From: Escherichia phage vB_Eco_slurp01
Sequence record: LT603033
Reading direction: 5' to 3' (one strand)
Length of the DNA: 64,000 nt
A model generated the notes under the pieces. It ran no database searches. It was not told the origin of the DNA and worked only from the letters and a program-made list of their open reading frames with translations. The position numbers and the translations under genes were made by a program. Shown here piece after piece: positions 5,039 through 5,107 of the stretch (positions within the stretch are counted from its first letter, which is position 1; every line of letters starts with the position of its first letter).

Positions 5039-5107
5039 AATTCCTCCTTTATTCATTATACTATATTTAATCAAAAAGAAAAGCCAGTATCAAGTACTGG
5101 CATCGTA
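5039..5107 (-). promoter_or_regulatory. Intergenic cassette: hairpin/T-tract + TATAAT + AAAGGAGG RBS
   Basis: Repeat block. Confidence 0.5.
5083..5101 (-). terminator. Putative terminator hairpin
   Basis: GCCAGTA/TACTGGC stem + T-run. Confidence 0.5.

What the first reader, a model, noticed from the sequence alone, without database searches (positions are those of the whole stretch)
5039..5107. Near-identical terminator/promoter/RBS/leader cassettes could drive gene conversion among the RCC1-like paralogs
The intergenic blocks at 187-257, 1398-1467, 3789-3859, 5039-5107 and 6218-6288, plus the first ~48 coding nt, are almost identical at DNA level while the gene bodies are not. Such long identical flanks are substrates for homologous recombination and cassette shuffling. 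One junction (2578-2585) lacks the cassette yet keeps the peptide leader, which argues that the leader is selected at protein level as well.
Basis: seen in the sequence. Interest (0 to 1): 0.55.

Follow-up and report, generated by a model that had tools for sequence, protein, structure and literature searches.

The report
Gene-shuffling cassettes in a jumbo-phage array
A giant E. coli phage puts the same short terminator-promoter-leader block in front of almost every gene of a tandem family of virion beta-propeller proteins, and comparison with ten related phages shows that whole genes have been swapped, lost, gained and re-ordered at these blocks, much like the PeSL cassettes already known from T4-type phages.

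Summary
The window comes from an Asteriusvirus jumbo coliphage (PBECO4/121Q/SHEFM2K group). Positions 1-7425 (minus strand) hold seven tandem RCC1-like beta-propeller genes. Five junctions carry a 69-71 nt block that is 84-94% identical. Each block has an intrinsic-terminator hairpin with a T-run, ATTAAATA..TATAAT, and AGGAGG. It is followed by a leader of about 45 nt (MLPFxRMxxYGNxAP).

- In 11 related arrays, 37 body types occur in different sets and orders.
- 92% of synteny breakpoints lie within -90..+60 nt of a leader ATG, against 12% expected.
- Five different genes follow the array-start promoter in different phages.
- Leaders are exchanged among paralogs. Orthologs with 100% identical bodies carry leaders only 64-67% identical.

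New points:
- The promoter element matches this phage group's late-gene motif (TAAATA).
- The leader lies outside the predicted propeller fold.
- The same leader heads unrelated protein families in sister genera.
- Published mass spectrometry finds these proteins in virions. The leader is therefore probably a portable virion-incorporation tag.

The closest known systems are the PeSL cassettes of T4-type phages and the T-even internal-protein locus with its capsid-targeting sequence. I rate this a new variant of a known kind, of moderate interest.

The parts
5039..5107 (-). Focal cassette (junction G>I). Hairpin GCCAGTAC-TTGA-TACTGGC at 5083-5101; T-run at 5073-5082; TTAAATATAGTATAAT at 5055-5070 (TAAATA late-promoter-like core, TATAAT at 5055-5060); AGGAGG at 5043-5048.
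   Evidence: It marks the boundary between gene G, 100% identical to SHEFM2K, and gene I, only 95% identical to every known ortholog.
6218..6288 (-). Cassette at junction T>G (hairpin 6264-6282).
   Evidence: Homology to SHEFM2K and E9.1, which lack gene T, resumes at about window 6249 inside this block.
3789..3859 (-). Cassette at junction I>D (hairpin 3833-3855).
   Evidence: Homology to G17, which lacks G and I, resumes at about window 3853. This is the right-hand boundary of the diverged I patch.
1398..1467 (-). Cassette at junction B>E (hairpin 1443-1461; -10 variant TATAAC).
187..257 (-). Cassette at junction E>A (hairpin 233-251).
2578..2585 (-). Junction D>B without a cassette (8 nt). 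The Shine-Dalgarno sequence AGGAGGG overlaps the stop codon of D.
   Evidence: D and B are adjacent in all 8 genomes that carry D.
7426..7528 (-). Array-start region: a diverged cassette (GGGTAAATATGATATAATGAATAAGGAGGG) in the divergent intergenic region. The plus strand carries a TTGACA-17-TACTAT promoter-like site for the small-gene array.
   Evidence: The same region precedes five different body types in other phages.
6289..7425 (-). RCC1-like gene, type T (378 aa). Leader codons 1-16 at 7378-7425.
   Evidence: An ortholog is found only in G17 (99.4%).
5108..6217 (-). RCC1-like gene, type G (369 aa). Leader at 6170-6217.
   Evidence: AlphaFold2 pLDDT 91; 7-bladed propeller over residues 20-369; residues 1-13 below pLDDT 50. 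Foldseek matches UVR8, RPGR, HERC2 and RCC1 at TM about 0.78.
3860..5038 (-). RCC1-like gene, type I (392 aa). Leader at 4991-5038 (allele VRMFDYGNIAP).
2586..3788 (-). RCC1-like gene, type D (400 aa). Leader at 3741-3788.
1468..2577 (-). RCC1-like gene, type B (369 aa). Leader at 2530-2577.
258..1397 (-). RCC1-like gene, type E (379 aa). Leader at 1350-1397.
1..186 (-). 5' part of RCC1-like gene type A, cut by the window start. Leader at 139-186.
   Evidence: The phAPEC6 ortholog gp549 (99% identical) was detected in virions by mass spectrometry (PMC7247149).

Best explanation
Each block is a self-contained expression cassette placed between genes of a tandem array of virion-associated RCC1-like beta-propeller proteins in an Asteriusvirus jumbo phage. 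Reading in the direction of transcription, it consists of: an intrinsic terminator (8-bp GC-rich hairpin plus T-run) for the upstream gene; a T4-type late-promoter-like element (ATTAAATA, with TATAAT just downstream); a strong Shine-Dalgarno sequence; and the first 12-15 codons, M-L-P-F-x-R-M-x-x-Y-G-N-x-A-P. Cassette plus leader form a direct repeat of about 115 nt every 1.2 kb, with perfect runs of up to 49 nt. Recombination or template switching between misaligned copies, within one genome or between co-infecting relatives, deletes, inserts, replaces or re-orders whole genes. Every product keeps an intact terminator, promoter, ribosome-binding site and in-frame leader, so it stays expressible. 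The same process converts leaders among paralogs. Shown here: the anatomy; the breakpoints and their position; the leader mosaicism; the fold. Inferred: that the element is a late promoter (from motif match only); that the terminator works; that recombination is homologous rather than site-specific (crossover points are spread over about 130 nt). A further inference is that the leader is a portable N-terminal tag that loads otherwise unrelated proteins into or onto the virion.
For: Identity of the phage.

Anatomy.

Array variation: 37 body types occur in 11 arrays, in different sets and orders.

Breakpoint position: 344 internal ends of high-identity blastn alignments (HSPs) were found. 92% lie within -90..+60 nt of a leader ATG, against 12% expected. 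The only non-cassette breakpoints are one gene-destroying deletion in SD-2_S15 and the terminal pseudogene.

Exchange zone: junction pairs that share only the upstream gene lose their extra identity at the hairpin. Pairs that share only the downstream gene gain it from the -10/RBS/leader onward.

Array start: the array-start region is followed by T, G, D, A or I in different phages. The crossovers fall in TATAATGAATAA (SHEFM2K), in the RBS (PBECO4) or inside ATGTTACCTTTTG (SD-2_S15).

In the window itself: gene I is a 95%-identity patch bounded by cassettes 5039-5107 and 3789-3859, between neighbours that are 99.6-100% identical to SHEFM2K. Gene T is absent from the closest phages, and the junction lies inside cassette 6218-6288.

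Conversion of leaders:
- Type I carries four different leader alleles on one body.
- Body 100% identical with leader 64-67% identical: type aa in Turkey3 versus WPEC3, and type I in SP27 versus E9.1.
- Between clades, ortholog leaders are 78.5% identical against 91.2% for bodies, and the leader is lower in 90 of 103 pairs.
- 61 of 78 genes have a closer leader in a paralog of their own genome than in any ortholog of the other clade.
- Synonymous sites are frozen: TTA 34/34 (46% usage in the bodies), CCT 33/34 (30%), and no GGT at Gly11 (61%).

Late promoter: TAAATA lies at -31/-32 in 97 of 133 array genes. It also lies upstream of 8 of 8 baseplate/tail genes of phAPEC6 that have a spacer, against 2.2% of random positions. 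The phage is annotated with a late sigma factor, gp46/47-like recombination endonuclease subunits and EndoVII. A late motif ATAAATA was predicted in relatives CBB and GAP32 (PMC5259590).

Leader as a tag:
- It has pLDDT below 50 and lies outside the propeller.
- It is the most conserved part of the protein.
- It heads a Gly-rich protein, PHROG 6011 'virion structural protein' and a Kelch propeller in the same arrays.
- Similarity between those proteins and the RCC1-like proteins is confined to residues 1-12.

Virion association: 8 array proteins of phAPEC6 were detected by mass spectrometry, including the ortholog of window gene A (PMC7247149). GAP32 gp001 (PMC5259590) and W70_237-239 (PMC11370258) were also detected in virions.
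Against: There is no transcript, recombination-frequency or localisation data for this phage. Promoter and terminator function rest on sequence only.

The breakpoint concentration is partly inflated. HSPs extend through any conserved cassette, genome pairs are not independent, and selection for intact genes would also favour gene-boundary junctions.

The linkage control is really one adjacency type (D>B, 56/56 kept). Other cassette-less junctions, such as M>K in E9.1 versus M>ad in G17, are themselves new. So the leader alone is enough for exchange, and the intergenic cassette is not strictly needed.

The cassette promoter differs from TATAAATA at 1-2 positions and also contains a sigma-70-like TATAAT.

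No conserved protease site (T4-type L/I-x-E) is present in the leader, so a capsid-targeting role of the T4 kind is not directly supported.

Peptide counts in the phAPEC6 mass spectrometry are low (1-5 unique peptides).
Confidence: 0.75

Rival explanations
1. Function only. The blocks and leader are alike solely because each gene needs the same terminator, promoter, Shine-Dalgarno sequence and N-terminal peptide. Junctions sit at gene boundaries only because other rearrangements destroy genes and are purged. The repeats do not raise the recombination rate.
For: The same design (hairpin, T-run, AATTAAATA, leader M-I-P-F-x-R-x-x-x-Y-G-N) is conserved in the distant genera of Salmonella phage Munch and Erwinia phage Hallingskeid, so purifying selection is real. 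The leader is kept at cassette-less junctions.
Against: Synonymous sites of the leader are frozen against the codon usage of the bodies. Discrete DNA haplotypes (GTT-AAG-TAC versus TTT-GAT-TAT) are distributed mosaically over body types. Ortholog leaders are more diverged than ortholog bodies, which purifying selection alone does not produce. A gene-destroying deletion persists in SD-2_S15, so purging is not immediate.
Confidence: 0.12
2. Site-specific system. The palindromic hairpin is the target of a dedicated recombinase or homing endonuclease (integron-attC-like or intron-less homing) that moves gene cassettes.
For: The hairpin is a conserved perfect palindrome. Its loop is found in both orientations at orthologous junctions. 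HNH/homing endonuclease genes lie a few kb beyond the array in E9.1 and SHEFM2K.
Against: Crossover points are spread from the hairpin's 3' arm to about codon 15 and differ between events. Exchanges also occur at junctions with no hairpin (M>K, M>ad, J>aa). No integrase-like gene is annotated next to the arrays.
Confidence: 0.05
3. Differential loss only. All phages descend from one very long ancestral array, and present differences are deletions without transfer or re-ordering.
For: Many differences can be written as deletions (for example PBECO4 = SHEFM2K minus G and I at the array start).
Against: Order changes: A is first in 121Q, Turkey3, fEgEco12 and WPEC3 but sixth to seventh elsewhere; K is internal in WPEC3; F precedes C in fEgEco12. 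Gene G is 100% identical between the window and Turkey3, although other shared genes of these two are 95-97% identical. The window's I allele is 5% diverged between near-identical neighbours. Even under this rival the deletions end in the cassettes.
Confidence: 0.06
4. Assembly artefact. Repeated blocks caused mis-joins in the public assemblies and in the window.
For: Repeats are a classic cause of mis-assembly.
Against: The repeat unit (about 115 nt) is shorter than a sequencing read. Identical arrangements recur in independent isolates from different countries (SHEFM2K/E9.1; PBECO4/SD-2_S15). All genes remain in frame.
Confidence: 0.02

Closest known systems
PeSL (promoter-early stem-loop) cassettes of T4-type phages (Arbiol et al. 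2010, PMC2839356; Comeau et al. 2014, PMC4122927)
   Same: Both are intergenic composite motifs of about 100 bp with a stem-loop terminator, a promoter, and a Shine-Dalgarno sequence and start codon at the 3' end. Both are repeated in a plastic genome region. Insertion, deletion and replacement differences between close relatives have their junctions at the motif. In both, recombinants automatically keep their own expression signals.
   Different: Here the promoter lacks a good -35 box and matches the late-gene TAAATA motif rather than a sigma-70 early promoter. The repeat continues 45 nt into the coding sequence as a conserved peptide leader. The cassette is confined to one array of paralogous virion-protein genes instead of being scattered before unrelated ORFans. 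The host is a Rak2-like jumbo phage. Mini-circles were not tested.
T-even internal-protein (IP) locus with the capsid targeting sequence (CTS) (review PMC3012670)
   Same: A short conserved N-terminal peptide heads an otherwise highly diverse, fast-evolving set of proteins that are found in the virion. The peptide is portable between unrelated folds.
   Different: The T4 CTS is cleaved by the prohead protease at L/I-x-E, and no such conserved site is in this leader. IPs are small, whereas these are 40-kDa propellers. Location (inside the head or on the surface) is unknown here. The statement that the T-even IP locus itself is hyperplastic rests on my memory of Repoila et al. 1994 and was not checked.
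Modular tail fibre and tailspike genes with a conserved N-terminal anchor and exchangeable distal domains
   Same: A conserved N-terminus for docking is combined with swappable binding modules. RCC1-like propellers do occur as distal parts of tail-fibre proteins (Pseudomonas phages Littlefix and PollyC).
   Different: The conserved part here is only about 15 residues and is predicted to be disordered, not a folded anchor domain. The proteins are single-domain and are not encoded in the tail-fibre cluster.
Eukaryotic RCC1 / RCC1-like domain proteins (UVR8, RPGR, HERC2)
   Same: The same 7-bladed propeller fold (TM about 0.78) and Pfam RCC1/RCC1_2/WD40_RLD matches.
   Different: Sequence identity is 16-20%. 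Nothing supports a chromatin or GEF role. The database names 'DNA condensation protein' and 'regulator of chromosome condensation' are transferred labels.

Membership tests
PeSL cassette | Stable stem-loop acting as terminator/attenuator in an intergenic motif | tested here: met
   An 8-bp GC-rich hairpin plus T-run at all five junctions. ARNOLD terminators are annotated at the same sites in G17. Function was not assayed.
PeSL cassette | Sigma-70-like early promoter (-35, -10, upstream AT-rich region) | tested here: not met
   The best -35-like hexamer is CTGGCA with TATAGT (9/12). There is no TTGACA-class -35. The conserved core is instead ATTAAATA, matching the late-gene motif.
PeSL cassette | Shine-Dalgarno sequence and start codon of the downstream gene at the 3' end | tested here: met
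   AAGGAGG lies 5-8 nt before the ATG in every block.
PeSL cassette | Indel and replacement differences between close relatives have junctions at the motif | tested here: met
PeSL cassette | Formation of excised mini-circles | not testable with these tools
   Needs outward-facing PCR or long reads on infected-cell or virion DNA.
T4-type late promoter | TATAAATA-like -10 element without a -35 box, upstream of late (virion) genes, read by a gp55-type sigma factor | tested here: inconclusive
   The cassette has ATTAAATA (core TAAATA) at -31/-32 in 97 of 133 genes. The same core lies upstream of 8/8 spaced baseplate/tail genes of phAPEC6, against 2.2% at random. A late sigma factor is annotated. 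No transcript data exist.
T-even CTS-tagged internal proteins | Short conserved N-terminal peptide shared by unrelated virion proteins | tested here: met
   The leader heads RCC1-like, Kelch, Gly-rich and PHROG 6011 proteins. Virion mass spectrometry is from the literature.
T-even CTS-tagged internal proteins | Removal of the tag by the prohead protease at an L/I-x-E site | tested here: not met
   No conserved Glu or L/I-x-E within or just after the leader across types. Actual processing is unknown.
T-even CTS-tagged internal proteins | Location inside the capsid and ejection into the host | not testable with these tools
   The phAPEC6 authors only speculate about an inner-body role.
RCC1-like domain (7-bladed propeller) | Seven RCC1 repeats forming a propeller | tested here: met
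   Pfam RCC1, RCC1_2 and WD40_RLD matches. AlphaFold2 pLDDT 91. Foldseek matches UVR8, RPGR, HERC2 and RCC1 with E values from 1e-23 to 1e-15.
Integron gene cassette (attC) | Imperfect palindromic recombination site used by an adjacent integrase, with crossover at a fixed position | tested here: not met
   Crossovers are dispersed over about 130 nt. No integrase is annotated near the arrays.

The most novel reading that the evidence does not exclude
The 12-15-residue leader is a universal 'loading tag'. Any protein that carries it (RCC1-like or Kelch propellers, Gly-rich proteins, PHROG 6011 proteins) is incorporated at a common docking site in or on the jumbo-phage virion. The terminator/late-promoter/leader cassette is then the recombination handle that lets these phages re-assort, between co-infecting relatives, a large open repertoire of tagged binding modules (37 body types in 11 genomes). 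This would be a plug-and-play system for virion cargo or surface adhesins. It would combine the logic of PeSL shuffling with that of the T4 capsid-targeting sequence, and it could explain the unassigned 'hairy' fibres or the inner body of phAPEC6-like phages.
Probability: 0.35. Interest if true: 0.7.

Novelty: new variant of a known kind. Interest (0 to 1): 0.5.

Why it matters
It extends cassette-mediated modular shuffling, so far documented for early-gene ORFans of T4-type phages, to a late-expressed virion-protein array in jumbo phages. It also shows a version in which the recombination handle runs into the coding sequence, so that recombinants keep a functional N-terminal tag.

It corrects a misleading annotation. 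Nothing found here supports a DNA- or chromosome-condensation role for these proteins. The name is a transferred label for diverse virion-associated propellers.

It gives a testable handle on two open questions for Rak2-like phages: what the RCC1-like proteins do in the particle, and how the array diversifies. If the leader does confer virion incorporation, it would also be a short peptide for loading foreign proteins into a 350-kb phage particle.

Tried and rejected
- An exact-pattern scan of IMG/VR for the cassette core returned only the 121Q genome itself, so it added no new arrays.
- The search for homologous proteins with gene G returned only 8 hits because of its word prefilter. That was enough for a shallow alignment but not for a family survey.
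- A degenerate hairpin pattern I wrote was mis-specified for loop length and found nothing. The hairpins are documented instead.
- My first Python run failed because all loci are stored in one file.
- I considered that the leader might be the N-terminal 'velcro' strand that closes the propeller. I rejected this because residues 1-13 are not part of the predicted fold and the leader also occurs on non-propeller proteins.
- I considered the linkage of D-B across the cassette-less junction as an internal control. It is effectively one observation, and other cassette-less junctions are recombinant, so I do not rely on it.
- Two paper searches failed on term syntax.
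Full report
**What the window is.** An 8-kb query from the left end of the window matches 36 records of Escherichia and Salmonella jumbo phages of the Asteriusvirus group (PBECO4, 121Q, G17, SHEFM2K and others). Identity is 86-99%, but only part of the query is covered, even in the closest phage. Positions 1-7425 carry seven tandem genes on the minus strand. Public records annotate them as 'regulator of chromosome condensation' or 'putative DNA condensation protein' (PHROG 4219). The rest of the window holds only small plus-strand ORFs.

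**Check of the observation.**
- The five intergenic blocks are 187-257, 1398-1467, 3789-3859, 5039-5107 and 6218-6288. They are 69-71 nt long and 84-94% identical to each other.
- The next 48 coding nt are 69-88% identical. Beyond nt 45, ungapped DNA identity falls to about 0.3, and the proteins are 20-28% identical.
- Read on the minus strand, each block has four parts: a hairpin GCCAGTAC-loop-GTACTGGC followed by a T-run, then (G)TATTAAATATAGTATAAT, then AAGGAGG, then the ATG.
- The hairpins score as terminator-like sites and the blocks fold better than shuffles.
- The leader 21-mer occurs seven times in the window, always at a gene start, and never in shuffles. The promoter 16-mer is confined to these junctions within the 64 kb.
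- Junction 2578-2585 is 8 nt long, with the Shine-Dalgarno sequence overlapping the stop codon of the upstream gene, and the leader is intact.
- A seventh, diverged block precedes the first gene of the array (7426-7528).

I fetched the whole array from ten relatives: G17, SHEFM2K, PBECO4, 121Q, SP27, Turkey3, fEgEco12, WPEC3, E9.1 and Salmonella phage SD-2_S15. I located every gene by its leader and clustered the bodies (residues 21 to the end) at 80% identity. This gave 37 body types, on average 28% identical between types. No type occurs twice in one genome. The gene orders, in the direction of transcription, are:

| Phage | Order of body types |
|---|---|
| window | T G I D B E A.. |
| G17 | T D B ac A U C H M ad J K |
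| SHEFM2K | G I D B E A C O F J K L |
| PBECO4 | D B E A C O F P V L |
| 121Q | A U B E C H ae F M J N L |
| SP27 | I D B E A C H F M J N K |
| Turkey3 | A G I W X Q Y af ag N Z H aa ah ai R S |
| fEgEco12 | A G X Q W B ab F C H N Z aj R S |
| WPEC3 | A G Q Y D B K O ab C P F J aa R S |
| E9.1 | G I D B E A C H F M K L |
| SD-2_S15 | D B E A C ak P V L |

So there is gain, loss, replacement and re-ordering.

**Where the junctions are.**
- In all-against-all blastn of the arrays, 92% of 344 internal ends of high-identity segments lie within -90..+60 nt of a leader ATG, against 12% expected for uniform placement. These ends are not independent, and alignments run on through any conserved block, so the figure is descriptive.
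- The exceptions are one deletion in SD-2_S15 that fuses gene C at nt 803 to gene F at nt 664, and the terminal pseudogene.
- I aligned 88 full cassettes. Junction pairs that share only the upstream gene keep extra identity through the 3' UTR and lose it at the hairpin. Pairs that share only the downstream gene gain extra identity from the -10/RBS/leader onward. Between these zones (3' arm of the hairpin, T-run, ATTAAATATAG) identity is at the common baseline. The exchange zone is therefore the shared block plus the leader.
- The array-start region is followed by five different bodies: T (window, G17), G (SHEFM2K, E9.1), D (PBECO4, SD-2_S15), A (121Q, Turkey3, fEgEco12, WPEC3) and I (SP27). 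The crossover can be read off single-base markers. It lies within TATAATGAATAA in SHEFM2K, in the RBS spacer in PBECO4, and inside ATGTTACCTTTTG in SD-2_S15. Such dispersed crossovers argue for homologous recombination or template switching, not a site-specific enzyme.

**The window itself is a mosaic.**
- Gene T is shared only with G17 (99.4%). Genes G, D, B and E are 99.2-100% identical to SHEFM2K and E9.1, which lack T.
- Homology to SHEFM2K and E9.1 resumes inside cassette 6218-6288.
- Relative to G17, genes G and I are inserted between the leader of G and cassette 3789-3859.
- Gene I is only 95% identical to every known ortholog, although its neighbours are near-identical to SHEFM2K. The diverged patch starts in the focal cassette 5039-5107, where differences peak (16 in 120 nt), and ends at cassette 3789-3859.
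- Gene G is 100% identical between the window and Turkey3, a phage whose other shared genes are 95-97% identical.

**Gene conversion of the leader.**
- The same body carries different leaders in different phages. Type I has VRMFDYGNIAP (window), GRMLNYGNEAP (SHEFM2K, E9.1), TRMVKYGNIVP (SP27) and VRMFDYGNITP (Turkey3), with identical sequence from residue 15 on.
- Two cases are clean. Type aa in Turkey3 and WPEC3 has a 100% identical body but a leader (nt 13-45) only 64% identical. Type I in SP27 and E9.1 has 100% and 67%.
- Between the two clades, ortholog leaders are 78.5% identical while bodies are 91.2% identical. The leader is the lower value in 90 of 103 pairs.
- For 61 of 78 genes, a paralog in the same genome has a closer leader than any ortholog of the other clade.
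- The Turkey3/fEgEco12/WPEC3 clade uses mostly two alleles (ARMVKYG and VR[ML]FDYG) across many body types. Orthologs of those types in the PBECO4 clade carry other alleles. This is the pattern of concerted evolution.
- Synonymous sites are frozen against the codon usage of the bodies. Leu2 is TTA in 34/34 types (46% in bodies), Pro3 is CCT in 33/34 (30%), Arg6 is AGA in 31/33 (43%), and Gly11 is never GGT (61%).
- Exchange also happens at junctions without an intergenic cassette: M>ad in G17 versus M>K in E9.1, and J>aa in WPEC3. The leader alone is therefore sufficient.

**What the cassette is.** Sister genera have the same design. Salmonella phage Munch and Erwinia phage Hallingskeid have arrays whose genes start M-I-P-F-x-R-[IM]-x-x-Y-G-N. 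A minority of their junctions have a hairpin (GGCCAGTAC..GTACTGGCC), a T-run, AATTAAATA and a Shine-Dalgarno sequence. Most junctions there are tight or overlapping. The invariant promoter core across genera is TTAAATA, not TATAAT; Hallingskeid has TATATT.

In the baseplate/tail gene cluster of phAPEC6, 8 of 8 genes with an upstream spacer of at least 30 nt have TAAATA 22-64 nt before the ATG (mostly at -36 to -42). Only 2.2% of random positions do. In the arrays, TAAATA sits at -31/-32 in 97 of 133 genes. The phAPEC6 record annotates a sigma factor for late transcription, gp46/47-like recombination endonuclease subunits and EndoVII. For the related phages CBB and GAP32, a late motif ATAAATA resembling T4's TATAAATA was predicted (PMC5259590). 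I therefore read the block as terminator plus late promoter plus Shine-Dalgarno sequence. This is an inference from motifs. A sigma-70-type use of TATAAT cannot be excluded, but there is no good -35 box.

**What the proteins and the leader are.**
- All six complete window proteins match RCC1, RCC1_2 or RCC1-like-domain models in Pfam.
- The AlphaFold2 model of gene G, built from an alignment of 11 sequences, has mean pLDDT 91.4. It is a seven-bladed propeller from residue 20 to 369. Residues 1-13 are below pLDDT 50.
- Foldseek finds UVR8, RPGR, HERC2 and RCC1 at TM about 0.78 with 16-20% sequence identity.
- In the alignment, the invariant columns are M1 L2 P3 F4 R6 Y10 N12, and after that only blade glycines.
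- The leader also heads proteins of other families within the same arrays. Type H is a 245-residue glycine-rich protein (PHROG 4474; its Munch homolog matches Pfam Gly_rich_2). Munch_540 and Hallingskeid_0082 are PHROG 6011 'virion structural protein'. Hallingskeid_0073 is a Kelch-repeat propeller.
- BLASTP similarity of the two checked, type H and Hallingskeid_0082, to gene G is confined to residues 1-12 or 1-14.

Published mass spectrometry finds eight array proteins in phAPEC6 virions (PMC7247149). I mapped these to types A, U, ac-like, F, M, J, N and K. Type A is the ortholog of the gene at the window's left edge. GAP32 gp001 (PMC5259590) and three tandem PHROG 4219 proteins of the unrelated Vequintavirinae phage W70 (PMC11370258) are also virion proteins.

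Together this points to a portable N-terminal tag for incorporation into the particle. Whether the tagged proteins end up inside the head or on the surface is open. The inside option is what the phAPEC6 authors guess, and it is what T4's capsid-targeting sequence does. For the surface option, RCC1-like propellers do form distal parts of tail-fibre proteins in some Pseudomonas phages, and phAPEC6 has unassigned 'hairy' fibres. The leader has no conserved T4-type protease site.

**Comparison with what is known.** The DNA mechanism is that of PeSLs. These are composite motifs of about 100 bp, made of a promoter, a stem-loop and a Shine-Dalgarno sequence, in hyperplastic regions of T4-type phages. 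They sit at the junctions of indels between close relatives and are proposed to shuffle the genes they flank (PMC2839356; PMC4122927). The present element differs from PeSLs in four ways:
- It has a late-type promoter core rather than a sigma-70 early promoter.
- It is restricted to one array.
- It extends into the coding sequence.
- It occurs in a jumbo-phage lineage not covered by those papers (neither 121Q nor RaK2 is mentioned).

The protein logic resembles the T-even internal proteins. [quoted passage not shown]

The papers I found on Asteriusvirus and Rak2-like phages mention the multiple RCC1-like genes only as tandem duplicates or as differences between isolates. None that I found describes the cassette, the leader or their role in shuffling. 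The library does not hold all journals.

**Verdict.** The element is best called a PeSL-like late-gene cassette fused to a portable virion-tag leader, which is a new variant of a known kind. The recombination role rests on comparative evidence from 11 genomes. Promoter class, terminator function and tag function are inferences that simple experiments can settle.

Noticed in passing
window 4050-4087 (inside gene I, minus-strand coding): A perfect palindrome with 17-nt arms (GGTAATACTTCAAATGC A CCT A CATTTGAAGTATTACC region) lies within the coding sequence. All four other type-I orthologs have an imperfect version (left arm GGTGGTAGT or GGTGGTGGT, where the window has GGTAATACT). The window's three clustered substitutions (Gly-Gly-Ser to Gly-Asn-Thr) exactly perfect the palindrome. 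This is the classic signature of a quasi-palindrome template-switch mutation.
   Followed up: partly
hairpins at window 233-251, 1443-1461, 3833-3855, 5083-5101, 6264-6282, and orthologous junctions in L003-L012: The hairpin loop is hypervariable between orthologous junctions of 98-99% identical phages. Its forms occur as reverse-complement pairs: CTCTG/CAGAG (9/9), CTCAAG/CTTGAG (4/3), CTCAG/CTGAG (3/1), CAAAG/CTTTG (2/2). Example: junction B>E is CTCTG in PBECO4 and CAGAG in SP27. The palindromic terminator appears to flip, either by inversion or template switching, or by conversion from flipped copies.
   Followed up: partly
window 7529 to about 12000, plus strand: Divergently transcribed from the RCC1-like array is a second tandem array of about 60-70-residue paralogs. 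SHEFM2K annotates about 20 such genes, several in PHROG 11711. The genes are packed head to tail, with no cassette between them. The rest of the window (12-64 kb) holds only plus-strand ORFs of at most 224 aa, presumably the early region.
   Followed up: no
window 187-257, 1398-1467, 3789-3859, 5039-5107, 6218-6288 (as RNA, minus strand): In a read-through transcript the terminator's U-run is predicted to pair with the purine-rich Shine-Dalgarno region of the next gene (minimum-free-energy structures). This would mask the ribosome-binding site on read-through RNA but not on RNA started at the cassette promoter. It may simply reflect U-rich/A,G-rich complementarity.
   Followed up: no
L012 (Salmonella phage SD-2_S15), array positions about 5753-6476 of the oriented array: An internal deletion joins gene C at nt 803 to gene F at nt 664 and leaves broken genes. 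This shows that rearrangements away from cassettes do occur and persist.
   Followed up: partly
L008, L009, L010 (Turkey3, fEgEco12, WPEC3) compared with the PBECO4-clade loci: The divergent clade uses essentially two leader alleles with opposite charge at residue 9 (ARMVKYGN and VRMFDYGN), in roughly equal numbers. This might mean two docking classes.
   Followed up: no
L016/L017 (phAPEC6, MK817115.1): The last two array genes of the record (350178-352535) are repeated at its start (3-2360), so the circular record seems to carry an overlap. A type-B gene at 2434 and genes at 6063 and 7325 have no CDS in the table shown.
   Followed up: no
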